In this document: piece by piece, positions 15,948 to 53,163 of the stretch
Position numbering within the stretch: the stretch's first letter is position 1
How the letters are laid out: every line of letters starts with the position of its first letter
Source of the DNA: Octopus sinensis
Lineage: Eukaryota
Length of the DNA stretch: 64,000 nt
Direction: 5' to 3'
Assembly: GCF_006345805.1 (NCBI RefSeq)
Contig: NC_042997.1
Span: 120,528,001-120,592,000, forward strand
The notes under the pieces: generated by a model
The model's database searches: none
The model's input: only the letters and a program-made list of their open reading frames with translations
Told to the model about the DNA's origin: nothing
Position numbers and translations under genes: made by a program

Positions 15948-16822
15948 TATTATTATTATATACATACATACACACGTGTATTATGAGTGTGTGTTTGTGT
16001 GTGTAACTTCGTATATACTCTGGACGACATGGTATAGGGTTTAATTGCAATAGGAACCTCGTAGGTATTGCCGAAACTCACCATACGTCTGTACATATGA
16101 ACAATATCATCGCGCAATTTACCATTTTACTGTCATGCAAATTTATAATTACTTTAGATTACGCCAATTTGGAGTATTGCTTCAAAATCACATTATAGAA
16201 GACGAACATTATATTTATTATTACATTATAACCCAGCTTCAATTAATTTAATCAAAGCTGATTCGGGTTTGTTATAATATGAATTAAAGCATCAAGATCT
16301 CCATTAAGTGTATTTCCCTCTGCGTCTACTGCTAACGAGTGTTTAACTATTATATTTACTATGCTTATTATAATATGAAAGCCCATATGAATAACATATG
16401 CCTGTTCAAACATACACCTATGAAACTCTGAGTTTCAGATGCCGAAGTGGAAATCCACAACACCATCTCTTCGGTTATCTGGCTATTTGAAAACGTTATG
16501 AAAAAATACCGTTAAAAATGAAGGGAAATTACTCTGTTATAACTCTGCTTTGCCTGCGTACTTATACATCGCTCGTATTTTTCGTCATAAAAATTATATA
16601 AAAATACATAAAAATATATAAAAATATATAAAATCTTCTTGGGACATAACACAGAAAGCATGTTCTATCCGTTTTCTTTAGGGGACCAAAAACGTAACAG
16701 AAATTTAGTCACATGTGGGCATGATCCGAAAAGCTCTGTCCTTGTATTTAGACATGTGGTAGGGTCTAAGCTGCTTTTCCAGATAAGCCATCTCTCCATG
16801 TCGCATAAACCGCACATTCCCT

Positions 16823-17931
16823 AACGTACATTTCGCCATCTACAAAGATGATGCCCTCACCTTAACAGCTAATACAAATGGACCAGCACAAGATCGTTTT
16901 AGGAAGGATATTATCCAGTTAATGAAACACTTCGGACTTAGTATAACTATAGACACTAACCTGACGGTTGTCAATTTCTTAGACGTTTCCTTAGATCTTA
17001 ATAATAATATTTATAAGCCTTATAGGAAGCCCAATGATAGACTAAGTTATATTAATGTAGGTTCATGCCATCCCCCTATAGTATTCAAAAATTTAGTTAA
17101 AAATATTAGTAAGAGGATTTCTAGTCTCTCATCTAATGAGGACATCTTCAATAGCGTTGCCCCAGTTTATAATAAAGCTTTAAAAGATAGTGGTTTTAGC
17201 GAAAAAATAAAATATACACCTATCACCAGCCAACAATAAGGAAAAGGAATAATAGAAATAGGAAGGTCATCTGGTTTACGCCCCCTTACTCACCCGAGGT
17301 GGCCTTCAATATAGGTAAATATTTCCTAGCACTGATAGATAGACATTTTCCAGTTAACCATGCTTATAGGAAACTCTTCAATAGACACAATTTAAAAATT
17401 AGTTTTAGTTCAACTACCAATTTTAAAAACATAATCAATCATAACATACAAAAAACACAAGAAGAAAACAGCTGTTCATGCAGGAATAAAGAATTGTGCC
17501 CGCTAAATGGAGCTTGCATGTCCAAGACCATCATATATGAAGCTACCGTAAACTCTATAACCACTAAAGACACCGTTTCGACGAAGAAATACGTGGGCCT
17601 GACAGAGGGTAATTTCAAGGCCAGGTTCAATAACCACACTTTGAGCTTTAGGCACTGGAACAAAAGAAAAGCGACACAATTATCCAATCATATTTGGTCT
17701 TTAAGAGATAAAGGTGTCGATTATAACATACAATGGAAGATTTTGGCCAGATGTAAGCCCTATACTAACGGCAGCGGAAGGTGCGGTTTATGCGACATGG
17801 AGAGATGGCTTATCTGGAAAAGCAGCTTAGACCCTACCACATGTCTAAATACAAGGACAGAGCTTTTCGGATCATGCCCACATGTGACTAAATTTCTGTT
17901 ACGTTTTTGGTCCCCTAAAGAAAACGGATAG
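16823..17931 (+). pseudogene. PLE RT (C-terminal half) plus C-terminal GIY-YIG endonuclease, with a frameshift at ~17235
   Basis: IYKDD at 16838 is in frame with VNFLDVSLDL..YKPYRKP. After the frameshift come KVIWFTPPYS, CSCRNKELCPLNGAC, IIYEA...YVGLT..FKARFNNH, CGLC and LNTRTELFGSCPH. It may belong to the Hydra clade (inference). Confidence 0.92.
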
Positions 17932-18115
17932 AACATGCTTTCTGTGTTATGTCCCAAGAAGATTTTATATATTTTTATATATTTTTATGTATTTTTATAT
18001 AATTTTTATGACGAAAAATGCGAGCGATGTATAAGTACGCAGGCAAAGCAGAGTTATAACAGAGTAATTTCCCTTCATTTTTAACGGTATTTTTTCATAA
18101 CGTTTTCAAATAGCC

Positions 18116-18178
18116 AGATAACCGAAGAGATGGTGTTGTGGATTTCCACTTCGGCATCTGAAACTCAGAGTTTTATCT
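18116..18178 (+). ncRNA. Type-I hammerhead ribozyme motif (CCGAAGA core variant) in the PLE 3' region
   Basis: Stem I agataa/ttatct, core CCGAAGA, stem II gatg/catc, (T)GAAA, stem III ACTC-a-GAGT. Predicted cleavage after GUU at 18172. Confidence 0.7.
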
Positions 18179-18276
18179 TGACTACCGAGTAATGTAACAT
18201 ATTGTATAGATAAATTTCCTCTATTTACATAATATTGAGGTCTCTTTCTTTCTTTTGTTATCTTACCGTTTTATCA

Positions 18277-18311
<35 letters not shown>

Positions 18312-18316
18312 TATAT

Positions 18317-18522
18317 ACTTATATTGTTTTACTCTTTTATTTGTTTCAGTCAATTGACAGCGGCCATGCTGGAACACGCCCTGCACTCAAACAAAGCGAC
18401 TCCACAAATTGTTCTTTGTAAGCCTAGTACTTATTCTATAGGGCTATTTTGCCGAACCGCTATGTTACGAGCACGTAAACACACATCGGTTGTCAAGTGA
18501 TAGCGAGCGGATAAGCATAGAA

Positions 18523-18553
<31 letters not shown>

Positions 18554-18554
18554 C

Positions 18555-18635
<81 letters not shown>

Positions 18636-18866
18636 AAACATATATATATATATATATACATATAGGTATATATGTATATATATATGTGTATATATATAAA
18701 TACGACGGGCTTTTTTCAGTTTCCGTTTACCAAATCCGCTCAAAAGTCTTTGGTCAGGCCGAGTATATAATAGAAGTCACTTGCTCAAGGTGCCAGGCAG
18801 TGGGACTGAACCCAGAACCATGTGATTGTTAGGCAACCTACTTATCACACAGCCACTCCTAGCTCC
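18317..18866 (-). mobile_element. tRNA/CORE-like SINE with internal microsatellite
   Basis: Reverse complement of the 56741-57150 family. Confidence 0.85.
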
Positions 18867-19193
18867 AGAATATATGTGTGAGTGTGTGACCATAACATAC
18901 ACGTACACACACACACATATATATAGCATCATCTCTCGATATAATATATATATTTGTATATATAAGATAAGATGCAAGTATTTGTGACTTTGGTCAAATT
19001 TTTCGACGAATCATACAAGTTGCACCATCATGGCTGCGGTCCAAATACTTTGTCTAACTTATTTCAAACACCCCCACCCAAAAAAACAGGTACAGTTTAT
19101 AACCAATGAAAGGCCGTGCGTACAATATACATACACGTGCGCGCACACGCACAGTGAATATATCAGGTTATCATTTCTCTTTTACACACACAT

Positions 19194-19367
19194 AGGTGCA
19201 GAAGAGGCTGTGTCGTAAATAGCTTGCTAACCAACCACATGGTTCTGGGTTCAGTCCCACTGCGTAGCATCTTGTGCAAGTGTCTTCTATTATAACCTCA
19301 GGCCACCAAAGGCTTGTGAGAGGATTTCGTAGACGGAAACTGAAAGAAGCCCGTCGCATATACGTAT

Positions 19368-19441
<74 letters not shown>

Positions 19442-19560
19442 TGTGTGTATGTGTGAGTGTGTTTGTGTCTGTTTGTGTGTCCCTCAACATCGCTTAACTA
19501 AAGGCGGTGCTCCAGCATGGACCAAGACAAAAGACTGAAAGAAGTAAATGAGTAAAAGAG
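19194..19560 (+). mobile_element. tRNA/CORE-like SINE with internal microsatellite (internally deleted)
   Basis: ggtgcagaagaggctgtg...gggttcagtcccactgcg...gcaagtgtcttct, ending in a gagtaaaagag tail. Confidence 0.85.
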
Positions 19561-20332
19561 TTAATGACAGACACACATTCACGCATGTCAGTCGGAAATT
19601 GAAAGTGTAATATTAAACTTTAACGCTAAATGGTTTACACTTCTATATATGACATGGACCGACAATTTATGTAAGTGCTTCTGTCTTGCCAAGTTAATCA
19701 CTGTGAATGTAGAGGTTCTTTTCATCTCTAAATCTAGAACATCCAACATACAGCTGACCATGTGAGGATGAAGGCAGAAGGATGTTAAATATCTCTATAT
19801 GTGGTGTGTTTGTGTGTATGCGAATGAACGGATGTATCTATTACATGCAGAACCCTCACACAATACGCACACACATACACACAAGCACACTCACACACAC
19901 ATATATATATATTAATTTTTACAGATGACTGCTAATCAAACGATCTTCTGAATCAGCTTATTACTATCCCTCCCCTCCCTCTGTCTATCTACATACATAC
20001 ACAAATATATGTACATAGACACAAACATATACACATGCATACAGAGAGAGAGAGAGAGTGTGGAGCGATTGGCAGTCAGATAAACATAAGACAAGCGAGC
20101 AGATAGATAGACCGATGGATAGATACTTAGATAGGTTAGAATAAAATGTAAATTGACTATGTGGGTGTGATACAGATTGCCATCAATAAGCTCTAGGAGA
20201 AATCCCAATTATATACTCCAAGTTCTTCATCAACATTACTTACTGAGGAAATAGTGTACCGGCTATAATAAAGATTGTCATCATTCTTATGGAAGCTTAA
20301 AAAAGAAAATACATTCAGGAGTAAGGAATAGG

Positions 20333-20368
<36 letters not shown>

Positions 20369-21608
20369 ATATATATATATGGAACTTTGCAAAAACAAAT
20401 TACATGATATAAAATCTTATCCTTATAGCTATTTAGAACACTAGTCGATGCCAGATGCATTTTATTCAATGAAGTGTGATAGTAAATTGCTATTGTCGTA
20501 CACATAAAAATCAAACGAAAAATATCAAAGGGCACAGATTTTGAATGTTATATGCAGCAAACACACGACATTTTAATGAGATGTATTCTTTAAATAGGTT
20601 GTAAAATTCTTACATAATAGAGTTCTCCTCCTCTGGTGTGACAACAAAAACATGACCAAGTGTTCCTTCTTTGAACACAATCAAAGGGCCTTCAACGTCT
20701 TTTTCTCGTTTTACTCTTTGCTATACGTTGTTCCTACTGATCCTTTTGAAACACATGGGTACTTCAGCATAAAGTTATATTTTTGCAATGTCATTATTGA
20801 TGCACAATGTTGTCAATGTTGTAGTGATATGTCGTACATGGACAGCCATGTATATCCTTATTTTTCTGAGCTATATTCTTTGTTCAGCTTGTAGATGAAC
20901 TTGCAATCTTATTAATTCAAGTGCTCGTCATGAATTGAAAATTCTTAAAGGATGCAACTGATTTGCATGCTCTAATATACTTACTCATTAAATATTGTCT
21001 AATTTCGTTATCATTGTTTATTTGAGCAGCAACTTGTCAGCGTGCAGTTGGTGATGTACATAGTTGACCTCACTGAGGCAACGATTTCAACGTTGCAGTG
21101 GCGTTTGAATGCTCATGGAAATGTTTCTTTATAAGGCACAACACATTTGTTAATGTTTGTTATCACAGTCAGCTCCTACCATTGCAACTGATTTTCGTCT
21201 ATAATTTTCGTCTAAGTAATTTTCCTCTTTCAAGAAAATCAGTACCTCTGATTTAAAAAAAATATCTCATAAGAAATATAGCTTTTGTATCTTTTAGTCC
21301 ACGGCACTCCAAAAGTTGTATAAATATTTAAGAAGTACGACAAAAGAACGGGACACAGTAGCTTTGACGATTCTTTGAAGTGTGGCCGATTTCATTTCTT
21401 TCTTCTTAAAGAGGGAGATGTCTAGTTTATTTATACACTGTTTCATCTTAATCAAAGAGCAAGAAAACAGACAGACAACTCTTGAATCTTTGTATAATAT
21501 ATATACGTGTGTATTTTTCTGTTTGTGTATGCGTGTGTACATATATATATTCAAACATGCAAACATACATATATAAATACACACATATATATTTATATAT
21601 ATATATAT

Positions 21609-21645
<37 letters not shown>

Positions 21646-22699
21646 TGGAAGGAAAGAAAGAGAAAACAGAGAGAAAGGACGAGACGGAGAAAGACAGAAT
21701 GAAAGAGACAGAATCCATGGTCTTCTAGAAAAAAGGATGATGATAAGAGAAAAAGTGGGCAGGTTCTAACTGTGTAACATGATGAATAATTTTGGGATAG
21801 AGAAAAACGCTTTGTAGTTCATATGATAGTATAGCTTACTTCTGTTCAGAACAAAGGCCCGAGGAGGATAGGTGGGTAGCGGTGTGTGAGTATGTCATGG
21901 TTAGTTATCAACTATCGTCCCAAGTTAGAAAGATTTTCTGCAAAATTAAGGGGAAGGAGGCTATTTTAAATTATTTTAACCGCATCAGTAGTAGGAATAT
22001 CGGCATATTCCAAGCATAAACACAATGCCTAGGGATCGAAAGCTGAATTACTGCGTACATATGTGAAATTTATTTTAAACTACAGACAGGTTCTTGTCAA
22101 GGACTCTCGACATTAGCAAACAAATAGCCATTCAAGTATCTTGTAGAATCATTAAAAATTTATCCTTATCGGCAGTTATATGACCGGCGCAATTCGACAG
22201 AACTAACAGATGTTTAACCCATTAGAATCCCAAGTGTTTTAAACATTTTTGGATGAACAAAAGATAGGAATGTCATTAATGATTTTTGTCTTTAGTAGAT
22301 TTTCTAATTCTTACCATGGTTGTGTATAAATAGTTTATCTGGTAACTAAATTATGGTTGCAAAATAGTCAAGATCAATATTTGAAGCAACCTACGCCACT
22401 CAACGATAACAAGCAACTCTCATTGCTGACACACATGTCCCAATAAATAATTCACTGTATGGCATCGCTTGCTACTTTAATCCTATTTTCGAAAGTCATA
22501 GAACATTTTTCTGCGCTTGTCCACCCACATCGCTCCACAACTTGTGTTCTTTTGTTTACGTCTCCATAACTTAGTGGATCCGCCAAATTTAGAAGCAAGC
22601 ATACTGCTGTAAATATAAGCACTGAAAAATGTCCATAGATAATTTCAAATGGCTTTACCGAGGAGGATTTATGGGTGCATTTCCTGCTATATATTCATG

Positions 22700-22912
22700 T
22701 CTTTGTTGCCCACACGGGGCTAAGTACAGAGGGGACACACAAGGAAAGACAAAGGGATTAAGTCGATTACATCGACCTCAGTGCGATACTGGTACTTATT
22801 TAACCGACCCCGAAAGGATGAAAGGCAAAGTCGATCTCGACGGCATTTGAACTCAGAACGTAGCGGCAGGCGAAATAGCGTTAAGCATTTCGCCCGGCGT
22901 GCTGACGTTTAT
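22700..22912 (-). mobile_element. tRNA-derived SINE (family of 47252-47499)
   Basis: Reverse complement match: accgaccccgaaaggatgaaaggcaaagtcga...aagcatttcgcccggcgtgct. Confidence 0.85.
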
Positions 22913-23246
22913 GCAAACCTGAAAGGTACATATTCAATATTATTATTGACATGATATGTAGAACTCATGTGTGTATGTGTGTGGTAGATGCATGCGTGTA
23001 AACATGGATATATACATACATACATCTGTATATAAGCCATTGTGCATATTCGTGTGCTCTGCGTTTAAGCGTATGCATGTTCCTGTGTACGTGATTTTGG
23101 TTTTCTCTTTTTCTCACACACATTTCACAAGTAGCTTAGCAATTCCCGCACAGATTGTGACACAATTATAATTCAGTAAGCATAAGTACTGGGGCCGATT
23201 TATTACACTAATTCTATCAAGATATTTTACCTCACAATATCTAGCC

Positions 23247-23512
23247 CAGTGGTTCTCAAACATTTTTGGGTTGCTGCCTAATTTGACCCAGGCCCCATTT
23301 CTGGCGCCCTCTAACCATCAAATGCATAAACCTCTTCCTGAAGCAAATTCAAAGTAACTGTATTTCACAAATAAAACTTAACTTAATAAACCCATTTTTT
23401 TCTTGTTTTTAAATGAATCGCTACTCCATTATCGCCCCACATTTCTTCAATGGTCCTTTGGAACATTCCACCGCCCCCAAGAGGGCAATACCGCCCAATT
23501 TGGGAACCAATG
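23247..23512. mobile_element. hAT/Charlie-type MITE
   Basis: TIRs cagtggttctcaaa / tttgggaaccaatg. The 8-bp flanks atctagcc and ctctagcg resemble the NTCTAGAN Charlie target site. Confidence 0.8.
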
Positions 23513-23781
23513 CTCTAGCGCAATGTCAGAAAACAGAAAATAATAGAAGTACTCAATCAAACACGCCCAATCACGTATATACATAAATAAATAATGCATA
23601 CAATTATATATATATACATATATATATATGAGAAATAATTGAATTTCAATTGAATTAGGTACTTAGGTTGAAGCACAAAGTCAGTCCAATATTATCCATA
23701 CAGCTCAAAGTAAGGTGAGTAAAATCAAAATAAGCAATAGCGACAACATGAATTTCGTCCATGGTCTTGCTCTAATAAATT

Positions 23782-24487
23782 ATTCAGCGGACACCAGAAC
23801 AATAGGCGGGCAAGACAGATGGAAATTATATAACTGGTGTCCGCAGAATGTTTCTCTAGAGAACATTCTTTCTTTGTAGTTTGATCGTAGGTGATCTATT
23901 TCTAGCATATGGCTGTCCACATAGTGGTTTTTATTACTTAAAATATACACATGCATTAGAATTTTCTCTGATTTTTCAGATTTTTGTATGCTAGGCTACT
24001 AGTTTTAAATTGATATTAATTAAATTAATATTCAATTTATCTCCCTCATTATTTAAATATTAAAATAAATATGTTCTCTAATAGGCAGCATTAACTGCAG
24101 TAAATTATTTGCTGCAGTTTTGGTTTCCGGAATTTAGCGCGCCAGATCTCAGACATTTGAAATTAACCCCAATGTAATCGTTGGAAATAAGCACGTGTCT
24201 GTTTTTATACGGAAAACTGATGGTTAGTTTTACGAATTATATTGCTTTTGGAACGATCGTACTGATGAGTCCTACGGAAGAAGGATTACGTAAGTGATTT
24301 ATTCGTTAATAGGCGAAACCGTTTTGCGATTAATTCTTGTTTTTTATATAATTTTCATCTGCCTTGCCCGCCTATTGTTCTGGTGTCCGCTGAATTTTCT
24401 CTAGAGGACATTCTTTCTTTGTAGTTTTATTGTAGGTAATCTATTTCTAGCATATGGCTGTCCACATAGTGGTTTTTAGCCCTTAAA

Positions 24488-24494
<7 letters not shown>
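23782..24494 (+). mobile_element. Non-coding PLE pseudo-LTR/retrozyme-like element
   Basis: ~115-bp direct repeats at 23834-23949 and 24380-24494. A 52-bp inverted segment at 23782-23833 is the reverse complement of 24344-24395. It has an internal HHR and ends in (TA)n. Confidence 0.75.
24255..24331 (+). ncRNA. Type-I hammerhead ribozyme motif
   Basis: Stem I gatcgta/tgcgatt, core CTGATGA, stem II g(t)ccta/taggc, GAAA, stem III ACCGTT (one change from the palindrome ACCGGT). Confidence 0.75.
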
Positions 24495-24531
<37 letters not shown>

Positions 24532-25398
24532 TATATATATGTATGTATGTGCATGTCTTTATGTGTGTATGTGTGTTCGTATGTGTGCAAGTGTCTGAGT
24601 GTGCGTGTAGTCATATATGAGTACAGATGTGCTTGGAATGTTAAGATCTGATGACATTCTCACAATTACTATTCGCATTGTACCATATTGTATAACAATA
24701 ACATCCGGAGATATTTGATACGGTAGACTACAGTAAAACCACCTGAAAATCGATTATATCCGTCCTGCTTTTCTATATTGAAAAACAGTATCTGTGAAAG
24801 TACTGAATCCGCTTAGTTGTAATGCATATATCTTATATATTGCATGAAATCATTTGAAATCGTATCTTAGAGATTTATCTCATAAAATTCTTCCTGCTTC
24901 TCATGTTCTGTTTGAATACAGATTGGTTCTGTTGGAATACATGAAAGCAGAACTTAAAATAAGACATGGTCCTCTAAAACATAATATTCGTAAGTTAATT
25001 ATATAAGTTAATTATGTGTAAATGCTAATTCTAAGTAGTGATATGGTTCATGGAGATAAATAACGAACCTAGAAAGTTTAAGTTTGTGAGAAGTATTGTC
25101 TGATGGTGACGTTAGCATGAATTGTACAGAAATGATTTTAGCTGCAACACTCAATCTTGTTACTGCCATGCCGCATGATTTTCAGCATTCTGTTATAATT
25201 GTTAAGTTACATTGTATTACAATGCTACCCTCGTAGAACAAATGAGAAGAGAAATTGTAACTAATTTGTACGTGTGGATTCTATTGCAATGAGTAATAAG
25301 AAACCACTGTGGTCAGGTAACTACACACGCACACACTCAAGCATTATGTACGCACACACATATACATGCATATTGAAATCGTATCCATAGTGTATGCT

Positions 25399-25457
<59 letters not shown>

Positions 25458-25459
25458 TT

Positions 25460-26140
25460 CGAATTTACAGAAACAAAGGACGAAGTGAGGCGATGAAACA
25501 ACAAGCAGGCGTATTAGTTTCACTCTTGGGAAGAACAGAAAAGACTTCGGCGTTTCGTTTAGGAAGTGTGTGTGGATGCGTACATAATGGTGTGGGTACT
25601 GTGAGGTGTATATGGACTGTGAAGGTGAATGTGGGTGTGTGGTTAATGGTGTGCGCTGTAAGTACTGAGTTGAACAGTGTTTATGGGTATTTGCATAGTG
25701 GTGTTTGGTGAGGATACTCAGTTAGATGGTGTATGGGTATGGGGTGGATGGTAGGAAGTTGGATTTAGATGAAGAGAGTTGGCGGTTTACGGCCATATGT
25801 AATAAAGGAAGGAAGGAAGAAGATCAATTGTTTTCACGACGGAGGCGCGATCCGAGTGAAAACTGTAGAAACAGTCGGAAGACAGACTCATGGTTCAGCG
25901 GTTGATCGGCGGAGCGGAAGTGCTGCGAGACCGGGATATTGCCGACTCTGATGTCTCGAAGGTGCTCAGTGAACCGGTCGGCCACGCGGCGTCTTGTTTG
26001 ATCAGTGTACAGAGAAGGACAGATAGTGCAGGATAGGCACTAGATAATATTGCTGGAGGCACAGGTAAACGAGCCGGCCAAGTGATAGGGAAGGTGGTGG
26101 CTGCCGGTGAGGATATTGGTTGTGGAGAGGTAGGGGCAGA
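25460..26140 (-). mobile_element. Penelope-like element 3' fragment (Cys-rich linker, GIY-YIG, 3' region), Neptune/Poseidon-like
   Basis: An unlisted minus-strand frame reads CSHSCYCICP...GSFTCASSNII*CLSCTICPSLYTDQTRRRVADRFTEHLRDIR. Confidence 0.82.
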
Positions 26141-26232
26141 TGCAATAGCATGAGTGAGAGCATAGAAAGGAGCCAGTTTGGGAGTCACATATATGTGTGT
26201 GTGTATGTGTATAGGCACATTGTAAATATATA

Positions 26233-26264
<32 letters not shown>

Positions 26265-26266
<2 letters not shown>

Positions 26267-26955
26267 TGAGTGTATTTTACCTTGTTAACAATTAACACGG
26301 ATAAATGAATGAATAGTTACCAGGGCAGCAAAATCTCACAAGTAAAGATGTTGTAACTCCTTGTTTATAAAGGTTGAAACTTCGTGTTTACGTTGAATAT
26401 TTGAATAATAGGAATAAAAAATGGAGTCAACGCAGGTTTAAACAAGTATTTTTTCTTTCTACATATGTTTCCAAAATTCCACTGATACTTATTCAAAAGA
26501 ATAAAAGGTATAAACAATGCAATCTTCTCTTCGGGAAAGTGAAAAAACGAAACTTGTCAATACAACATTTTAGCAAAAAATGATGGATTCGTATAGCGAT
26601 AGACAGAACGCTATTAATATTGTTTAAAAAAACGTTATATGATATAATGTCATAAGTAGCTAACAGAAAGAGTAGGGATATTAATAGTGAATGTTAAATA
26701 TAAAGGAAATTAAAGTCTAAACTATATATAATGATAGAGACTACTTATATGCACTAAAAGTATGCTTTTGCCAATGCTTACATCTGTATGCTCGTTCTAT
26801 AACCGTGTTTACTAGAGTATTTTTAGAAAAAATAATGAAAAATAGCTCAGAATTGCAGAGAAGACAGAATTTCTTGCCTTTGTCATATGGTATCGAAATT
26901 GAGAGGATCAACCATTCCAAATGAAATTGTTCATTGTGGTCTTTTAAATTCCAAA
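26265..26955 (-). mobile_element. PLE 3' fragment (GIY-YIG C-terminus plus 3' region), same broad type as the 16.4-18.3 kb element
   Basis: IWNLKD...LEWLILS..IPY...KFCLLCNSE...VN..IER..RCKH. Both ends lie at (TA)n. Confidence 0.8.
26455..26539 (-). ncRNA. Type-I hammerhead ribozyme motif (CCGAAGA core variant)
   Basis: Minus strand reads ctttc-CCGAAGA-gaagatt...aattttg-GAAA-CATATGTA-gaaag. Stem III is the palindrome ACATATGT and the cleavage triplet is GUA. Confidence 0.72.
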
Positions 26956-26969
26956 TATATATATATATA

Positions 26970-27544
26970 TAGACAACAAATTCGAATTTCAAAATAGAAA
27001 ATTACCCTTACACAAGTGATTTTACATGTTAGAAATAGCAGCCAACACGGCCAAAAACTACAATTTTTATAGCAAGTTTCGAAGTAAATGAAAAATAAAA
27101 ACCTTTACCTTGTTATATAACGGTTATACCATAGTTTCAGATTTCTTTAGCAAATAATATTGCTTGCCATCTTTTAATAGATTAATTAGCAAGACCATAT
27201 TATCTACCAGGCGAATCCTCGTCAGTAACCGGCCTAAACAACTAACTTATAATTCAGAGACAAGGTAACACGTGACCCATCATTATATGCTATAATTTTT
27301 CAAATATCGCGCGCAGGCGCATTCACATTCAGTAATGGATACAATGCCGAGCAGAAACTTCGAGAATGCTAAGAATATATTCATAAGGTACATATATATA
27401 GGGTGGCGAATACTCGTTATAAATATCACCACTAGTGACCTAGCATGTATAAAAAGTCAATAGACAACAAATTCGTATTTCAAAATAGAAAATTACCCTT
27501 AAACAGGTAATTTTACATGCTAGAAATAGTAGCCAACACGGCCA
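26970..27544 (-). mobile_element. Non-coding retrozyme-like/pseudo-LTR element with 84-bp terminal direct repeats
   Basis: 26970-27053 matches 27461-27544 (period 491). It has an internal HHR and TA-repeat flanks. Confidence 0.78.
27121..27231 (-). ncRNA. Type-I hammerhead ribozyme, near-canonical
   Basis: Minus strand reads cggtta-CTGACGA-ggatt...aatct-GAAA-CTATGGTA-taaccg, with a perfect 6-bp stem I and a GUA cleavage site. Confidence 0.85.
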
Positions 27545-27559
27545 TATATAAAGATTTTT

Positions 27560-27785
27560 TAAGCGAGGAAAGGCTGTGCACTGAGTCAATCCGATTCACT
27601 AAGCAACAGCAGCAATAATCCGAAAAGAAGAACAAGTCAACATCATCGTAACCGCTGATCCGCAGGTTTTAGTCGTAGTTATCCCAGTTACCTGAGTTAC
27701 CTTCTCCTAGAAGGATGCCCTAACAAAGGTTAGAAGTCCACTCCCAATGGTTTAACTACGCGATCGGGTATTCAGTCCGATTATT
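27560..27785 (-). mobile_element. Non-coding repeat with an RTE 5'UTR-like motif
   Basis: Minus strand ggacttctaacctttgttagggcatccttctaggagaaggtaactc. Confidence 0.45.
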
Positions 27786-27900
27786 TCTATGTCCCCGCGC
27801 ATTTATACATACATACACATATATTTATGTGTGAGTGTGCGTGTATGTGTGTGTGTTTGTGTCTGTGTGTTTGTGTCTGTGTACGTAAATATATGTATAT

Positions 27901-27977
<77 letters not shown>

Positions 27978-28078
27978 CCACAGCCTTAAGGCTGATACGT
28001 ATAATAGAGTAAAATAATGTGCGTATAATAGAGTAAAATAATGTGCGTTTTACGTATGAACGAACTAAATGACATATA

Positions 28079-28590
28079 TTCGCGCTTTCATATGAACCAT
28101 TAGGATATCGAAAAGTTCCCTTTGATTAATTTTTGTTTTTTTTCCGAATAGATCCTTTACTGAAGAACAATACCTTACATGCATGCATAATGAGACGAAT
28201 TTCTTGCCCATGTACGGTTATAAATAAATGTACAATCACTACTGCATTATGCAAGAGCGGTTCAGATATTCATTTGTGGAATTCCACAGCATCGAATGAT
28301 GTGAATTTCGCTTTCTTTTTATTGGAGACATATTTGAACCAAGATATCACCGAGAAGCTGTTACTCCGCATCAACAAATCTGACGATTCATGACTATGCA
28401 ATTAATCTTTCTTGAAATTTTATTTGTTTCTTGTCTTAGATTGGTTGCCATATAATTCATTGCTACCGTGCTATTCATAATGCACGCAGGTAAGGCATTG
28501 TTATTTAGTAACGGATTTGTTTGAACCCCCCCCCCCGATAACCAAAGTGAATTATTCGATTTCTTAATGGGTTCATATGATAGCACGTAT
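28079..28590. mobile_element. MITE with ~110-bp imperfect terminal inverted repeats (Tc1/mariner-like, TA flanks)
   Basis: cgcgctttcatatgaaccattagg...aacaataccttacatgcatgcataatga pairs with tcataatgcacgcaggtaaggcattgtt...taatgggttcatatgatagcacg. Confidence 0.75.
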
Positions 28591-28599
28591 ATATGACAT

Positions 28600-28900
28600 T
28601 TAGCATCGTCCCCCATAGGTCCGACACCGAGGTGTGGCGGGCCTATAGGGGAAGATGCTACTGTTGTGATAGTCACAGCCTAGCTGGTGATTGTCACACG
28701 CTGTTGACGGATTACTATCCAGAAACCTGGGTCCCTATGTATCCCGTAAGGTTAGAGATGGGAAGGCTAATCGGAAACAGACAGTGTATCGTTAACCAGC
28801 TGGAGGAGATATCTTCCTAGGGCTATAAACAAGAATAGCATCACCCTCTATGTGTCCGCCACATTCAGGTAGCAAATATACATCACAATTCCGTACTGTT
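28600..28900 (+). mobile_element. Diverged copy of the 332-nt HHR (retrozyme-like) family with a 5' fold-back
   Basis: CTGTTGA-cggat..atcca-GAAACCTGGGTC at 28701-28733. Downstream sequence aligns to 32886-33070, and there is a hairpin at 28600-28660. Confidence 0.65.
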
Positions 28901-28904
28901 ACAC

Positions 28905-29275
28905 GGGTGTAGATGTGGGTGGGGTGGGGGAACGGCTGTACATGTGGGTAGAGTGGGGCCACAGGTGTAGATGAGGGTGTGTGGAAGGAAGGTGGTAGAT
29001 TGTTATCCGTGAAGAGAGGAAGTATGAGTCAGATGACGAGAGAAAGTAAGTGTCAGATGCAGAGAGGAAGGGGTCAAATAAAGAGAGAATGTCCGAACAC
29101 AGGCAGATGTTCTAGTGAATGACCATAGAGCGAAAATGGTATGAGACGAGGTTTCATAGCCGAGTCTTATGTCACAGAGGTGCTCCGCAAACCGGTCATC
29201 CAAGCAGCATCCCGTTTGACCAATGCACAGAGAAAGACAAAAAGAGCAGTAGATACAGAAGATGACGTTACCGGA
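28905..29275 (-). mobile_element. PLE GIY-YIG fragment
   Basis: Minus frame GNVIFCIYCSFCLSLCIGQTGCCLDDRFAEHLCDIR. Confidence 0.75.
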
Positions 29276-29448
29276 TTGAGTCTGAGCCCTTGTTCAAAGA
29301 TTCGGAGATGATATCTAGCCTGCGGTCTCGGCCAAACTGCTTGTCATGTTCCTTCTTACTATCCACGACTTCACAAATTTAGCCCAAGCAACCTGCGTCG
29401 TTGGCAGACGAGAATCTTCTAATACAATTGTAAGAACGGTTAGAGTAT

Positions 29449-29480
29449 GAAATTTCGACGTACTACGTCTCTTCAGTGGC
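29449..29480 (-). ncRNA. Hammerhead core motif (stem I not evident)
   Basis: Minus strand CTGAAGA-gacgt-agt-acgtc-GAAATTTC. Confidence 0.5.
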
Positions 29481-29799
29481 AGCTGTCCACTCGCCACATA
29501 CACGCCATCTATGTTCGCTCTACGAACACCAAATGCATAATTTGATCAAAATAGATATGAACAGCAAGTCAGTCACGAGTAACATATATCAAGTAATCTT
29601 TTATACTTAATATTTTATTTGTGGTGAATAATGCATACGAAAGTTTAATTGAAACTGAAAAATATTTACTGTCATTCATGATTGCCAAACGAAAATCTTT
29701 TGAATATATATACATGTGTTTATATATGTACGCCTTTCTATCATTCGCTCTCCATCTCCCCCTCTCTCTCTCTCTGTACATATATGCATATACATGTGT

Positions 29800-29868
29800 G
29801 TGTACGTATGTATGTATATATATATATATGTATATATATGTATGTATATATATATGTATGTATATATA

Positions 29869-29949
<81 letters not shown>

Positions 29950-29954
29950 GTATA

Positions 29955-30004
<50 letters not shown>

Positions 30005-30014
30005 ATATATATAT
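29800..30014. repeat. (TA)n/(TATG)n microsatellite
   Basis: Directly visible. Confidence 0.95.
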
Positions 30015-30394
30015 CATGATATGAAAATTAGTTTATTGAAAACAGTAAAGATAATATAATTCACAACGTAAAGCAAAATGATTGGCATTAAAAATTTTTC
30101 AATTGCAATTCTGCAATTGATGACATTCTCTATAGATTTAGGTTAAGTAGTCAATAAATATGTATTCGTAACTTCATTCGTCATCAAGCAGGTATCAATA
30201 ATTTCATATGTCGCTAGCACGAATTATTAAGAAAACATGGGAAAACGTAGGAGGGCTTTTGATATATGTATTACGTATATACATATATAGGAAATTAATG
30301 AATTAAATACGCAATACATCAGAGTGTATGTGATTGTATACAGAAACACACATACACACACACACTCACCAATGCGTATTTATATATATATATT

Positions 30395-30580
30395 CGCTTA
30401 CTTGTTTCTGTCATTTGACTGCGGCCATGCTAGAGCGCCGCCTTTGTTCGAAATAGTAGAGTTATTTTCGTAAGCCCAGTACTTATTCTATCGGTCGCTT
30501 TTGCCGAACCGCGAAGTGACGGGGATGTAAATAGAACAACATCGGTTGTCAAGCTATAGTGAGAAGACAAAGACAGACAC
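30395..30580 (-). mobile_element. 3' half of a CORE-like SINE
   Basis: cttgtttctgtcatttgactgcggccatgctagagcgccgcc matches the reverse complement of the 57.1-kb SINE tail. Confidence 0.8.
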
Positions 30581-30624
30581 ACAAATACACACACACAAAC
30601 ACACACACATATATATTACAGTCC

Positions 30625-30800
30625 AAAAAGAAGAACAAACACAAAAACAACAACAACGCGAGGACGTTGTACATGTAGAATATTAGCAGACGCTCCGGGA
30701 AGGTAAGAAAGATGATTTAACGTTTCGAGCATCGTTCTTCTTCAGAAAGAGAGGAAAGTCCAATAGAAAGGAAGAGGGAGGACCAAACGCCAATGATTGA
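30625..30800 (-). mobile_element. PLE pseudo-LTR fragment containing a minimal HHR (30716-30749)
   Basis: Minus strand CTGAAGA-agaacgatgctc-GAAACGTT, with palindromic ACGT stem III. Related to the 25460-25560 PLE tail. Confidence 0.6.
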
Positions 30801-30866
30801 CATATGAATACATATATATATACCTATCCATCTATCAATCTATCTATATCTATATCTATCTATCTA

Positions 30867-30919
<53 letters not shown>

Positions 30920-30963
30920 GTATGTGTGTGTATGTGTATGTGTGCGTGCGTATATATATATAT

Positions 30964-30964
<1 letters not shown>

Positions 30965-31047
<83 letters not shown>
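30965..31047. repeat. (GATA)n microsatellite
   Basis: Directly visible. Confidence 0.97.
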
Positions 31048-31048
<1 letters not shown>

Positions 31049-31087
31049 CATAGATATATATAGAGATATATACATAGATATAGATAT

Positions 31088-31629
31088 AAGAAATAATTGA
31101 GATTCAGTTGAACTAGGTACTTAGGTTGAAGCACCAAGTCAGTCCGATATTATTCGCACAACTCGAAGGGAATATAATAAAAATAAGCAATAGAATATCA
31201 AGTCATGATGCACTACGACCGTTTCAAGCGGGTCCATTTAACTGAACAATGCAATCATTACATCAATTCAAATGCAGGGCTATCATCAGCTGCACAAATA
31301 AATATAGTTTTAATCAGTCGGACACATTAATATAATTTTACTGAAATGTTCTAAGAGAGCAAGTATGTGGAAGAAATCCTTGTTGTCGGTATAATAGCTA
31401 AGAATATACTACACTTCCAAGAAATGCATGATCATTTTGATCGTTGGGATCATAGCTTGTAAAAGATTATGATTCATTTGTAATTTATTAGTATTTTAGC
31501 AACTACTAAATCTGAAGGACAAGTGTGAGTTGACAGCGCATTGCTAGGTATGGTCATAAATATTGCCATTTCTTGATATCCTGTTACTTATAAATATTGT
31601 CATTTCTTGATATTCTGTTGCTTATTTTG

Positions 31630-31673
<44 letters not shown>

Positions 31674-31722
31674 TCAAAATAAGCAACAGAATATCAAGAA
31701 ATGACAATATTTATAAGTAACA
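31088..31722 (-). mobile_element. Non-coding pseudo-LTR-like element with an HHR and a terminal palindrome
   Basis: Its left end is homologous to 23628-23740. It carries an HHR at 31208-31295 and a perfect 53-bp inverted repeat (31582-31634 / 31670-31722) around (TA)n. Confidence 0.6.
31208..31295 (-). ncRNA. Type-I hammerhead ribozyme motif
   Basis: Minus strand gtgcag-CTGATGA-tagc...gctt-GAAA-CGGTCGTA-gtgcat. Confidence 0.62.
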
Positions 31723-31727
31723 TGATA

Positions 31728-31798
<71 letters not shown>

Positions 31799-32444
31799 TG
31801 TGTGTGTGTGTATGTGTGTGTTTGTGTGTGTGCATGTATATGTGTGTATAACTATAAGTTAGACATGTTTCTGCCAAAGATGAGCGTAAATAATATTTTA
31901 CATACGTACATACATGCAAACAGACAGACACAGTCGGACAGACAAACAGAGATACATATATACTGACATGGATGCATATAATGAATGACGATTCTTATGT
32001 TCAGATACACAATTATATTATCTATTTGGTTTTACTCTCAAAATAGCAATATAAAACGATACGAAATCACGTTTGGAGAAAGCAAAAAACCGCGCTATAT
32101 ATAAGTACGTGGTAGATTTGGTCGTCATTCTTGAGACACGTTCTGGAAAATTGAATGGGAAGATGGTTGAAATGGATTAATGGCCTGTTTGGTTCGTCAG
32201 TGCAGCCTGCGTAATATATATCCACATTATATATCCACATACTCAAATATAGCGCTATCTTGTGATTATTGCTATTAAACTTAGTGGAACCAGATAGTAA
32301 TGTTTATATGCCAACAGAATGTGGCAGTCCTATGAAGGGCGATGTTTCTGTTGTTTTAGCCCCAGGAAAACATCTTTCCCAGCTGCCTATCGACACACAA
32401 CTTGTCTTTGTATAACATGTGCATGGGAGGTGATTGCTCCCATA

Positions 32445-32488
32445 CTCACAGACCTAGGTTTCTGAATGTTATCCCTTATCACTGTGAG
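32445..32488 (-). ncRNA. HHR copy (core mutated to GTGATAA)
   Basis: Minus strand ctcaca-GTGATAA-gggataacattca-GAAACCTAGGTC-tgtgag. Confidence 0.7.
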
Positions 32489-32846
32489 ACAACCACCATC
32501 TATTAATGAAAGCTCTATTCACTGAATTGAGATGACATCCAGAGACCTAGGTCTGTGAGTATCACGGAAGGCTAGAGATGGGAGTGATGACCTCCACTGC
32601 AAATGCTATACAACTGGAAAAGATCGTTTCTTTGAACTAAAAAAAGAGTACCATCGTCATTTATAGGATTGTCACATTCTGTTAGCATATAAACATTACA
32701 ATTCGGTAATGTTACTGTATTTCTCTCGCTCAGAGATTTATAAAAATTTGTTTTTCTCGATACGAGATCAGCGACTGTGTGTGTCGCTTAAAAGAATATA
32801 TAGTATTTGCAAGTGGAGAAAGCTTTCGTTACTAGCTTGTGGTTGT

Positions 32847-32891
32847 CTCACACTGAGGACGGATAACAATATTGAAAACTAGGACTGTGAG
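32847..32891 (+). ncRNA. HHR copy (intact CTGAGGA core, stem III mutated)
   Basis: ctcaca-CTGAGGA-cggataacaatatt-GAAAACTAGGAC-tgtgag, with a perfect 6-bp stem I. Confidence 0.72.
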
Positions 32892-33319
32892 TATCACGTA
32901 AGGCTAGAAATGGGAGCGATGACTTCCCTTACAAATCCTATACGGACAAAAACTGTCTGTTGACAGCCAGCTGGTATAGATGCTTTTTTTTCTGGGGCTA
33001 AAACAACAGTAACATCGTCCGTTATAGGACTGCTACATTGTGTTGGCTATAAACATTACTATCCGGTACTTTTACTGTATTTCCCTCGCTCAGAGATTTT
33101 AAGCATGTTGTTTTTCTCTATTAGTGGAACCAGTTTAAGTTTAATTGAATCAAGCATTGCTTGTTGAAACCTTAGTTTCAGATATTGCTATAAACATATT
33201 TTAATGCTTTAAGCCAGTAATTGTTATTGAAATCGATTCATCCTAAAATTATCAGAGAAAGCTTTTTCTAACACACACACGCACACAGACGCGTGTACAG
33301 ACATACATAGATATATTTG

Positions 33320-33520
33320 AGAATGTGGGTAAAAGAAAATATGGGTTGGGAGTCAGTTAGTTATGATTTTATTAAAAACATTCCCCTCTCAGTTTAAAAC
33401 AACACTTGCAGTGGTCTGTCAGGTTTTTTACATCATGTAAATGAACTTGGAAGATCGAGCATCTCACCGGGACTTTCGTGATAGCCTTAAAGCCTGAACC
33501 CTTTTAGCACTTCCTCTGTA
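33320..33520. mobile_element. Mariner-derived non-autonomous fragment (one terminus)
   Basis: Ends gaacccttttagcacttcctctgta, resembling mariner TIRs of the tacgagggg..ctgaaaag type. Confidence 0.45.
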
Positions 33521-34139
33521 TATATTAGGTACAAACTTATCTATTATATCATTATTTAAAAGAGAATAGCTGAAAGCTACTTCGTAATTCTGTTGTATAG
33601 CAGAAGCAACCTGTTGAGACTCAGAGAAGTTTCCAGCACCAACTATAATTTATAGCCTATATGTGACATATTTGACATGTATTTCTTTAGAAAGCAGTGT
33701 TCCTGCATTTACATTTTTATGTACTCGTCAGTATACGCTGGGCATAATTTAGAAATAATCCATAATCTAACCTCGCAGCTTATTCCCAAGTGTGACTGTT
33801 AAATGAGAAAAAAATGTCATCTCCTTTTAATCTATCACGATGAACATCGGATTTCTTTTTTGCATTCAGATTTGTTTTTCTTATCCCATTACTACTCTGT
33901 TATTTGTAGATTTTTTTCTTAATGTAATCCCTTTTCCGCTCAGTCAACATATTCAGTGTATCAAAACAGATGCAACAAGATATATTTTATTACCACACCG
34001 AATTTTGCCTTTATATTCCTTCTTCTACAAGTAATTTTGAGATTAAAAAAATGGATCGCCAAATAGCATAATCTTTGAAACAACTGACAAACCATTTTTT
34101 ATAAAAATATCACCGTAATGAAAATATGTATTTCAAATT

Positions 34140-34285
34140 TTGGCAGAAGGCCTGCGGTTTCTGGAATAGGGTAGGTCGATTAGATCGACCCAAGTGTTCA
34201 TCTGTTAAGTATTTTATGCACCGCGAAAGGTTGAAGGGCAAACTCAATCACGGCGGAATTTGAACTCAAAATATGAAGACGGACT
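34140..34285 (-). mobile_element. Decayed SINE fragment (47.3-kb family)
   Basis: gtcgattagatcgaccc...gaagggcaaactc..ggcggaatttgaactca. Confidence 0.6.
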
Positions 34286-34525
34286 AACTGTGAGTTTATC
34301 CGTATTCAATACGGATAAACTCACACCCTCATTTTTATCTTCACTTTCTGGAAAACTACGATGTTTTCGAAAAACTTTTTAATAACCTGATATATGACTG
34401 TGTAATACGAATTGAACTCTCTGAAACCAATATGTTATCTAAATTCTCATTTTTATAGAATTTTCCATGATGTTTCACGAGTGTAACATTACCCCCTTTG
34501 ATGTTTGGGGATCTCGGATGTTTTT

Positions 34526-34610
34526 TCGGCTTATGAGTACGAGCCACCTATATTTACTGCAACTTTTGTAGCTTTATTAAAGATGTCCTCGTACGAAACA
34601 ATTGTACCGA
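34526..34610 (+). ncRNA. Type-I hammerhead ribozyme motif (one core mismatch, CTTATGA) in a pseudo-LTR-like segment (34291-34642)
   Basis: tcgg-CTTATGA-gtacgag...ctcgtac-GAAA-CAATTGTA-ccga, with a perfect 7-bp stem II and the palindrome ACAATTGT. Confidence 0.8.
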
Positions 34611-34639
34611 TATATTGATCCATTCTTGTTGCTTTTTTC

Positions 34640-35189
<550 letters not shown>

Positions 35190-51837: not shown

Positions 51838-53163
51838 ATATATATATGCGAACATATGTGTATGTGAGTATATATATGTGTGTGTATGCATTTTTAGATA
51901 TACACACATACACACATATTATTACGTGCGTCTATGTGTGTGTGAATATATTCTTAACATTATTGCAACGCACACATAGTGCTGTAAAATATTTCCTAGC
52001 ATTTCTACATTGATCCTCAGTTTGCTACATATCTACCTAACCCATATTTTGCTTACATAGTTTAAGCAAGTATATATAATTTTTGCAAGCAAAAAATTCC
52101 AAATTAGATGTGTTATACTTGGCTTTTCAGACTAGCAGGAGATGAACACAGCTTCCGTCTTGAAGCAAGCCAATGCTATTCTGGTGTCGTTGTGTCAGCT
52201 AGCATATAAACATCATCTGATCATCCCAGTCATTACAATCTAGTATTTTAATGTTATATACGGTCCCAGTAGACACAGGCGATATTTTCTATACATCATC
52301 CGCTATTCTTTCGTGGTTTTGATAATCATTTACTTCTTTTAAGTACGAGATGTTTCCGCCTACAACCGCTGATTTCTAGGTTTCAACGTTGTTTAGTTTC
52401 TTGACGACACGATGTTTTTTTTGGGTTTCTGTATGGGTCGCTTTCATAAATCATTCCCTTTGATAGTCTGAAATCTTAGAGGGATGGCTCAAACTATACA
52501 CACCACCACGTATATAGTAGAGGTTGCAGTAAGGTTCTTTACTGAGACAGCCAATATTTTCAATATTCCTATGAGATGAAAATCAAGCTTCTTATACACC
52601 ATTGTATATATATAAAAAAGGTGTTCCATTGATACGGACACGATGTCTAAAATAAGAATATAAGTGGTACGAAAATGGACAAACCAAATATGCATATGCT
52701 GGTGTACAAATTCAAATCCTGTATAGTTAGTCTCGTAGTTATTGTACCCTAAAATCCAATGAAACATTTTCCAAGCCCCAGTAGCTTTCGGTCTCTAGTT
52801 ACCCACTCCGGAGACAGATTTGCTAAGTTAAACACAGGATTTCATAACATTAGTGATAGTCACATGAATATCAGGAAAAGTTTGCTTCTTTTTATTCATA
52901 TTACAAATATATATTTTAAGTATATTTTTGAAGGTTACCACTGGCCCAAAAATTATTTAATTTAGCATATTTTCCAATCATTTATGCAAATTCACTATGT
53001 AATATGCGTTTCTCCATATGTCTAAGTATATAGTTGTACTGGACACAACTTAGAGAAATTTATGCTTTGATAAGGCCTGGTGGGAGGCAGAAATACGTAT
53101 CGACACCTCCCTAATTGTCTCCAAAATATCACATATATATATATATAATATATATATATTATA

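What the first reader, a model, noticed from the sequence alone, without database searches (positions are those of the whole stretch)
18116..34610. Dense cluster of diverse minimal hammerhead ribozymes (~12 motifs in ~17 kb)
HHR-like motifs lie at 18116(+), 24255(+), 26455(-), 27121(-), 28701(+), 29449(-), 30716(-), 31208(-), 32445(-), 32519(+), 32847(+) and 34526(+), belonging to roughly 8-9 unrelated sequence families. Weaker ones lie at ~53050 and ~58420. Minimal type-I HHRs in PLEs and metazoan non-LTR retrozymes are established. The inference is a rich, probably uncatalogued ecosystem of ribozyme-bearing autonomous and parasitic retroelements targeting TA microsatellites in this genome.
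Basis: partly seen in the sequence, partly recalled or inferred. Interest (0 to 1): 0.8.

Follow-up and report, generated by a model that had tools for sequence, protein, structure and literature searches.

The report
Hammerhead ribozymes of octopus Penelope retroelements
These are real hammerhead-ribozyme motifs, predicted to cut their own RNA, carried by nine families of Penelope-type jumping genes and their likely parasites; they are spread over this whole, likely octopus, genome (an estimated 100,000 copies) rather than forming a special cluster, and several recently spread families share a core change predicted to weaken cutting.

Summary
All 12 sites are type-I hammerhead (HHR) motifs or damaged copies of them, in nine repeat families. 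Three families (18116, 26455, 34526) are 3' ends of protein-coding Hydra-clade Penelope-like elements (PLEs); one has an intact 778-aa copy elsewhere. Three (24255, 27121, the 28701/32445-32847 group) are 350-550-bp non-coding tandem units of the non-LTR retrozyme kind; 31208, 30716 and 29449 are less resolved. Only two window copies (18116, 27121) keep every helix. The cluster is largely not special: 80 unselected 10-kb stretches gave 41 strict motifs (3.1 in shuffles), about 1.3e5 genome-wide; the window has 5 against 3.3 expected. HHRs in TA-targeting Hydra PLEs, including one octopus family, are published. Not found in print: the scale, and a U4C core (CCGANGA) in about a fifth of one motif class, fixed in subfamilies of several unrelated families including the two youngest PLEs here, while G5A and A9G show no excess. 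Cleavage is untested. New variant of a known kind.

The parts
16420..18276 (+). Family A: 5'-truncated Hydra-clade PLE with an inverted 401-nt copy of its 3' region at 16420-16820; RT-end and GIY-YIG reading frames at 16787-17931; ends at (TA)n
   Evidence: Inverted repeat, 99%; ORFs; CxCX5C, CxxC and CxH motifs; 40 best copies 99-100% identical, 1211 candidates; 876 exact 3'-end 22-mers
18116..18178 (+). HHR of family A: U4C core, all helices intact, palindromic stem III, predicted cut after 18172
   Evidence: same core in copies L233-L235
23607..23784 (-). 3' fragment of family H with a short inverted arm, no HHR
23782..24480 (+). Family B: non-coding unit of about 545 bp, about 1.2 units in tandem plus a short inverted piece, ends at (TA)n
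   Evidence: direct offsets of 532-547 bp in 8 of 20 loci; no shared ORF; 1859 candidates
24255..24331 (+). HHR of family B: canonical core, stem III palindrome damaged in this copy
   Evidence: 19 of 20 aligned copies with intact core
25480..26190 (-). Old PLE relic with a broken GIY-YIG-type frame (Neptune-like, recalled label)
   Evidence: translation and tblastx to L295
26265..26956 (-). Family C: 3' end of a young Hydra-clade PLE (last 71 codons plus pLTR), ends at (TA)n
   Evidence: 100% match to residues 708-778 of P0001; full copy L231 has a 778-aa ORF between two HHRs 2863 bp apart
26455..26539 (-). HHR of family C: U4C core, long stem II, palindromic stem III; first stem II pair mismatched in this copy
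   Evidence: 491 U4C and 153 canonical exact 20-mers genome-wide
26960..27561 (-). Family D: non-coding unit of about 460-490 bp in partial tandem, ends at (TA)n
27121..27231 (-). HHR of family D: canonical core, all helices formed, 78-nt stem II/loop II
   Evidence: best score in the window; compensatory A-U 14 / G-C 9 in stem II
28051..28377 (-). Broken RT fragment of another Hydra-like PLE
   Evidence: tblastn with P0001, E 9e-10
28680..28902 (+). Family E relative; HHR at about 28695-28740 with broken core and stem I
   Evidence: matched by 17 family-E loci
29440..29482 (-). HHR of family F: intact core and 5-bp stem II, stems I and III decayed; followed by a GIY-YIG-type remnant
   Evidence: 4 other matches, 2 with intact HHR
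30716..30748 (-). HHR of family G: true minimal type, stem I weakened
   Evidence: 15 of 20 loci; 2217 candidates
31208..31295 (-). HHR of family H (element about 31090-31570): canonical core, first stem I pair broken in this copy
   Evidence: 16 of 20 loci; 2969 candidates
32286..33122 (.). Family E composite (unit about 350 bp): inverted copy with HHR 32445-32490(-), then tandem copies with HHRs 32519-32562(+) and 32847-32890(+), all three damaged
34305..34642 (+). Family I: 3' end of a Hydra-clade PLE, ends at (TA)n
   Evidence: L237 has the ORF (one stop) between inverted HHR-bearing ends
34526..34610 (+). HHR of family I: helices perfect, G5U core change in this copy (family core canonical)
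53068..53106 (+). Degenerate HHR-like motif with palindromic stem III, 30 nt before (TA)n
   Evidence: read from sequence; no copy among loci held
58404..58459 (-). Degenerate HHR-like motif; its downstream flank resembles family E

Best explanation
The 12 sites are independent insertions, mostly beside TA microsatellites, of hammerhead-bearing ends of Hydra-clade Penelope-like retroelements and of short non-coding tandem units that are likely copied by the same Penelope enzymes, with the hammerheads predicted to cut the RNA as dimers. Shown: families A, C and I encode RT plus C-terminal GIY-YIG with the HHR in the pLTR; B, D and E are 350-550-bp HHR units in partial tandems; each family tested has one or two fixed 3' ends 40-220 nt past the predicted cut; the core is conserved and stem II covaries. 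Inferred mechanism: transcription through tandem pLTRs or units gives RNA with two or more HHRs. Two HHRs pair through the palindromic stem III and cleave after NUH, and the unit is re-ligated to a circle or stays an uncut multimer. The PLE endonuclease nicks (TA)n, and RT starts at a fixed internal site downstream of the HHR and copies back through it. This yields 5'-truncated, tandem and inverted copies that mostly decay afterwards. U4C is inferred to be a tolerated, slower core that successful lineages have adopted more than once.
For: Chance is excluded: 19,022 genome-wide matches to one narrow core pattern against 1,441 for the reversed control. Stem III is fully self-complementary in 30 of 41 sampled hits, against 44 of 245 shuffle hits. 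Intact 778-aa ORF between two HHR pLTRs; Hydra motifs; Atlas neighbours at 0.98 (no common Pfam family), further ones carrying GIY-YIG. (TA)4 or more follows the 3' end in A 24 of 25, C 17 of 20, I 16 of 25, D 13 of 25, H 13 of 20, G 11 of 20, against 5.8% background. Two sharp 3' ends per family, at +51 and about +210 (C), +42 and about +100 (A), +41 and about +115 (H), +172 and +219 (E), match the PLE tail signature in coding and non-coding families alike (PMC8557442, PMC11167929). Core departures from the commonest letter were 44 of 1538 (2.9%) against 1866 of 28954 (6.4%) in flanks, summed over six families; compensatory stem II pairs in D and E. The active dimer equals the two-strand minimum-energy fold for C and I and is within 1.4 kcal/mol for B and D. 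U4C 5,839 vs 1,542 control; G5A 2,113 vs 2,617; A9G 1,515 vs 1,413; A6G 2,277 vs 1,032.
Against: No cleavage or circle was observed. Single window copies fold no better than shuffles (z from -1.98 to +0.67 for 14 of 14). The active dimer is 4-15 kcal/mol above the best two-strand fold for A, E, G, H and the 546-bp unit. In family I the core is no more conserved than the flanks (0.033 vs 0.022). (TA)n follows only 6 of 20 B and 5 of 30 E copies (ends were approximate and some continue in tandem). No sequence link was found between B, D, E, H and the pLTRs of A, C or I, so the mobilising partner is not identified. 5' breakpoints show no pile-up at the cut site. Published PLE HHRs cleave weakly in vitro (PMC4209133), and 8 of 9 Xenopus retrozyme dimers did not cleave (10.64898/2026.07.22.740005).
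Confidence: 0.85

Rival explanations
1. The elements are PLE-related, but in U4C lineages (A, C, a subfamily of the 546-bp unit) the ribozyme is effectively dead and hitchhikes; cleavage is not needed for spread, as in HHR-less Naiads.
For: U4C considerably lowers activity in vitro (PMC3088659). Naiads lack HHRs and spread well (PMC8557442). T-to-C is a common mutation. The young C subfamily also changed G10.1-C11.1 to G-U.
Against: Other core transitions (G5A, A9G) show no excess over control, so decay is not general. The U4C 546-bp unit carries a compensatory U-A to C-G change in stem I. U4C still supports a viroid in vivo.
Confidence: 0.3
2. The non-coding units are not moved by PLE proteins: they are PLE-end relics amplified as minisatellites, or are copied by other LINE enzymes.
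For: Tandem arrays of 4-5 near-identical units exist (L252, L263, L348). No sequence match to an autonomous pLTR was found. Other RT remnants lie in the window.
Against: Copies are dispersed over many contigs, are 5'-truncated, carry inverted arms in 8-15 of 20-30 loci, and E and H have two fixed 3' ends like A and C.
Confidence: 0.12
3. The 17-kb stretch is a functional ribozyme cluster or a special insertion hotspot.
For: 4-5 strict hits against about 0.9 expected; the highest of 80 fixed 10-kb bins had 3.
Against: Unrelated families, both strands, ages from 72% to 100% identity, 10 of 12 copies damaged. The whole window is at background (P=0.23). TA arrays are twice as dense here and correlate weakly with hits (rho 0.23, P=0.04). 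Flank bins reach 9 and 6.
Confidence: 0.05
4. The motifs are chance matches in AT-rich repetitive DNA.
For: Six of the 12 window copies fail a strict descriptor; single-copy folding is unremarkable.
Against: 13-fold excess over reversed control genome-wide; 41 vs 3.1 in shuffles; paralogues restore the full motif.
Confidence: 0.01

Closest known systems
Hydra clade of EN+ Penelope-like elements, including Hydra-1_Obim (Craig et al. 2021, PMC8557442)
   Same: Single ORF with RT and C-terminal GIY-YIG; RWK-type, DKT, CxCX5C, CxxC and CxH motifs; about 3 kb; (TA)n insertion; type-I HHR near the 3' end with palindromic stem III. By eye, family A's RT-end stretch is close to Hydra-1_Obim (not aligned by a tool).
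   Different: All Hydra HHR rows in the paper's File S2 have a canonical CUGA core and short loop II. Families A and C have U4C; C and I have about 55-nt stem II/loop II regions. Family C lacks the CxCX5C linker, and C and I read RWL and RWR.
Metazoan non-LTR retrozymes (Cervera and de la Pena 2020, PMC7229834; Li et al. 2026 preprint 10.64898/2026.07.22.740005)
   Same: Non-coding 350-550-bp tandem units, low GC, one type-I HHR per unit, co-occurring with PLEs.
   Different: Dozens of unrelated families rather than a few; PLE-like inverted arms, fixed 3' ends and TA targets; no parent pLTR identified here; circular RNA not shown. No mollusc is named among the 35 genomes of the preprint; the mussel of the 2020 paper has about 5000 HHRs.
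Minimal HHRs of PLEs (Cervera and de la Pena 2014, PMC4209133)
   Same: Type-I topology, unpaired base after A9 in several families, palindromic stem III, many heterogeneous families per genome.
   Different: Estimated 1e5 here against about 9,000 (Xenopus) and 4,000 (coelacanth), by different descriptors. The core variant described there is U3-A8, not U4C.

Membership tests
Type-I hammerhead ribozyme | CUGANGA and GAAA boxes with NUH, in type-I order | tested here: met
   Canonical at family level in B, D, E, F, G, H, I; A and C differ at one position (U4C)
Type-I hammerhead ribozyme | Three helices supported by covariation | tested here: met
   Double changes in stem II of D (A-U 14 / G-C 9) and E (A-U 19 / G-C 7); stem I change between L263 and L348; little variation to test in A, C, I
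Type-I hammerhead ribozyme | Self-cleavage at NUH | not testable with these tools
   No assay; only contigs were available
Type-I hammerhead ribozyme | Match to Rfam hammerhead models | tested here: not met
   0 hits at gathering score on 5 loci with intact motifs; none around 31208 at E up to 10; none among the best 150 of 278 rows shown for the window
Hydra-clade PLE (families A, C, I) | Single ORF, RT then C-terminal GIY-YIG | tested here: met
   P0001, 778 aa; L237; weak Pfam GIY-YIG E 0.023 in A, none in C or I; Atlas
Hydra-clade PLE (families A, C, I) | N-terminal RWK motif and DKT in place of DKG | tested here: met
   A RWK and DKT; C RWL and DKT; I RWR and DKT
Hydra-clade PLE (families A, C, I) | CxCX5C linker; CxxC and CxH in the endonuclease | tested here: inconclusive
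   Linker present in A and I, absent in C; CxxC and CxH in all three
Hydra-clade PLE (families A, C, I) | pLTRs with HHR, tandem and inverted structure, (TA)n targets | tested here: met
Hydra-clade PLE (families A, C, I) | Placement inside the Hydra clade in an RT tree | not tested
   Reference proteins were only read in the supplement
Non-LTR retrozyme (families B, D, E) | Non-coding tandem unit with one type-I HHR | tested here: met
   Periods 532-547, 462-495 and 332-354 bp; no shared ORF. H shows no tandem copy in 20 loci; G shows one 631-bp duplication
Non-LTR retrozyme (families B, D, E) | Expressed as unit-length circular RNA | not testable with these tools
   No run on record as RNA; contigs only
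Non-LTR retrozyme (families B, D, E) | Derived from a PLE pLTR | tested here: inconclusive
   No match to A, C or I ends; other PLE families were not collected

The most novel reading that the evidence does not exclude
This octopod genome is among the most ribozyme-dense animal genomes known (about one hammerhead per 20 kb, likely more than 80 families), and its recently successful Penelope elements and retrozymes have repeatedly evolved the same weakened U4C core because slower self-cleavage favours transposition. Natural U4/U4C sister subfamilies and an intact young PLE would then allow a direct test of what hammerheads do for Penelope elements.
Probability: 0.3. Interest if true: 0.7.

Novelty: new variant of a known kind. 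Interest (0 to 1): 0.5.

Why it matters
The role of hammerheads in EN+ Penelope elements is described as unclear (PMC8557442). This genome offers an intact young element (L231), paired canonical and U4C subfamilies, and many non-coding units with the same insertion signature, so the question can be tested. It also means standard annotation misses most of these motifs: Rfam found none here, and the main text of a 2026 octopus repeat annotation does not contain 'ribozyme' or 'hammerhead'. Descriptors that demand CUGA would miss about a fifth of the motif class counted.

Tried and rejected
Rfam scans gave no hammerhead hit among rows seen; the window scan was swamped by microsatellite matches and 128 of 278 rows were not shown. 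The repeat finder was swamped by microsatellites apart from the family-A inverted repeat. A first strict scanner missed most sites through tight stem limits. Single-strand folding did not separate motifs from shuffles. A tie between U4C and A at position 7 was rejected: U4C occurs with U7, C7, A7 and G7. A pile-up of 5' truncations at the cut site was tested in eight families and not found (for family A only loci picked by best match were available). No link was found between non-coding units and A, C or I ends. Expression: no RNA holder listed. Contigs of 3 guessed-RNA runs and 1 unclassified run were laid on 26270-27560. In X1 the depth over the family-C HHR reached about 22,800 against about 30 beside it, with the canonical U4 letter; X6 showed about 520; family D's HHR was mostly uncovered. 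These are contigs, the RNA status is a guess and the organisms may differ, so this is not used as evidence. Earlier scan findings: none returned. Lunse et al. 2017 on small PLE hammerhead variants could not be read and may bear on the novelty of U4C.
Full report
Observation. The window lies in a 2.72-Gb animal genome, G000, rich in TA microsatellites. Each of the 12 claimed sites has a hammerhead-like stretch. A descriptor scan allowing one core mismatch scored six of them at 10 or more, and gave 5 hits at 12 or more against 0.23 in 60 shuffles. The other six are damaged copies. Searches of G000 returned 779-2,969 candidates for eight families (40 candidates scored, 20-30 loci fetched for each) and 5 for family F. 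In the paralogues the full type-I motif is present. The sites fall into nine families. By my reading of the sequences against their families, only 18116 and 27121 keep all helices and their family's core.

Is it a cluster? I took 80 stretches of 10 kb at round coordinates on the large contigs. They gave 41 strict hits in 799,900 bases against 3.1 in 20 shuffles, which extrapolates to about 1.3e5 motifs (Poisson range 88,000-170,000). The 41 hits form 29 sequence clusters, Chao1 about 84. A whole-genome count of one narrow pattern gave 19,022 against 1,441 for the reversed control. The window has 5 against 3.3 expected. The 200 kb beside the window hold 22 hits, including two arrays of a 546-bp HHR unit. 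The finding is a genome-wide property with a modest local pile-up.

What the elements are. Families A, C and I continue upstream into reading frames. L231 is a full family-C copy, a 778-aa ORF between two HHRs 2,863 bp apart; L237 is a family-I copy with one stop; L235 has three tandem 520-bp family-A ends before a frameshifted ORF. The proteins are about 30-47% identical to each other in the aligned stretches. They show the RW(K/L/R), DKT, CxxC and CxH motifs, and in A and I the CxCX5C linker. These define the Hydra clade of PLEs in PMC8557442 (seen: passages, section 11, supplement parts 1-2 and search hits). That paper lists an octopus member with an HHR and (TA)n preference. Family A resembles it by eye, which is my basis for calling the host an octopod. 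Families B, D and E have no shared ORF and occur as partial tandems of about 545, 460-490 and 350 bp, the anatomy of non-LTR retrozymes (PMC7229834, passages; preprint 10.64898/2026.07.22.740005, parts 1-3 of 5; its supplements are closed). H has no ORF or tandem copy in 20 loci. G is the classic minimal type. F has few relatives and adjoins a GIY-YIG-type remnant.

Signs of function and mechanism. Core positions vary less than flanks in five of six families (2.9% against 6.4% summed), and stem II covaries in D and E. Stem III is self-complementary in 30 of 41 sampled hits. The double-hammerhead fold is the best two-strand fold for C and I and close to it for B and D, but not for A, E, G, H or the 546-bp unit. 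Coding and non-coding families end at (TA)n more often than the 5.8% background, strongly in A, C, I, D, H, G and weakly in B and E. They carry inverted arms (none in G), and C, A, H and E have two sharp 3' ends downstream of the cut. This fits the PLE tail signature and internal RT initiation (PMC11167929, part 1 of 4). Copies read through the cut site with no breakpoint pile-up there, so the template is inferred to be a circle or an uncut multimer, as proposed in PMC4209133 (parts 1-2 of 4). Cleavage, circles and trans-mobilisation are inferred, not shown.

The U4C core. Families A and C, whose best-matching copies are 98-100% identical, read CCGAAGA. In C, 491 exact 20-mers have C and 153 have U. 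In a rough tree of 41 rows rooted at the midpoint (19 U4C and 20 U4 copies taken in genome order, 2 outgroups), 18 of 19 U4C rows form one group with a single U4 row, nested among U4 rows; 2 changes are needed against 13 in shuffles. More distant relatives of A have U4 (L068, L284). U4C also marks subfamilies of G and of the 546-bp unit, the latter with a compensatory stem I change. Genome-wide the U4C pattern gives 5,839 against 1,542 control, an excess of about 4,300 beside about 17,600 canonical. G5A (2,113 vs 2,617) and A9G (1,515 vs 1,413) show none; A6G shows a smaller excess (2,277 vs 1,032), partly from sequence upstream of family-E-like cores. The reversed control does not match dinucleotide content exactly. 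U4C is known to lower activity in vitro yet support a viroid (PMC3088659, passages). Searches for hammerhead with U4C returned only that paper. Lunse et al. 2017 was not available and is known to me only through a review (PMC6765202, passages).

Comparison and verdict. HHRs in PLE ends, TA-targeting Hydra elements and PLE-linked retrozymes are all published. Searches pairing octopus or cephalopod with hammerhead, Penelope or retrozyme found no survey of octopus hammerheads. The giant squid paper reports 235 Rfam hammerheads (PMC6962438, passages). A 2026 octopus repeat annotation lists recently active Penelope families but has no occurrence of ribozyme or hammerhead in its main text (PMC13282606, passages; supplements not read). 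The axolotl has up to 120,000 retrozyme copies in a genome about ten times larger (different methods). The scale, family diversity and recurrent U4C core are the new parts. Interest 0.5.

Noticed in passing
L252 and L263 (60-70 kb before and 40-50 kb after the window); L348: Young 546-bp HHR unit in head-to-tail arrays that switch strand (8 and 6 HHRs); a U4C sister array of 5 units, 95% identical. Best candidate for an active retrozyme.
   Followed up: partly
G000, rows: About 16 of the first 100 A6G-pattern rows look like one small-HHR family with a palindromic stem III and G at core position 6; possibly a second fixed core variant.
   Followed up: no
window 26300-26580: Contigs of guessed-RNA runs X1 and X6 are hundreds to thousands of times deeper over the family-C HHR than beside it, with the canonical U4 letter; could be an abundant small RNA of a sister family.
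   Followed up: partly
window 43286-46009 and 47437-48234 (-): Broken non-LTR retrotransposon frames, Pfam RVT_1 and zf-RVT, next to trinucleotide arrays.
   Followed up: no
window 6150-6449 (-): Mariner-type transposase fragment, Pfam Transposase_1.
   Followed up: no
window 13620-13958 (+): 112-aa frame that looks like a Helitron fragment (recalled resemblance; no Pfam hit).
   Followed up: no
window 18340-18860, 19190-19540, 22700-22910, 30390-30620, 34850-35190: Several short interspersed repeats flanked by microsatellites, with copies elsewhere in the window; they resemble octopus SINEs (recalled label).
   Followed up: no
window 16420: The inverted family-A arm stops 4 nt past the predicted cut, whereas other family-A arms stop at +42.
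   Followed up: partly
L237 ORF: Family I carries long asparagine-rich low-complexity insertions between RT and endonuclease.
   Followed up: no
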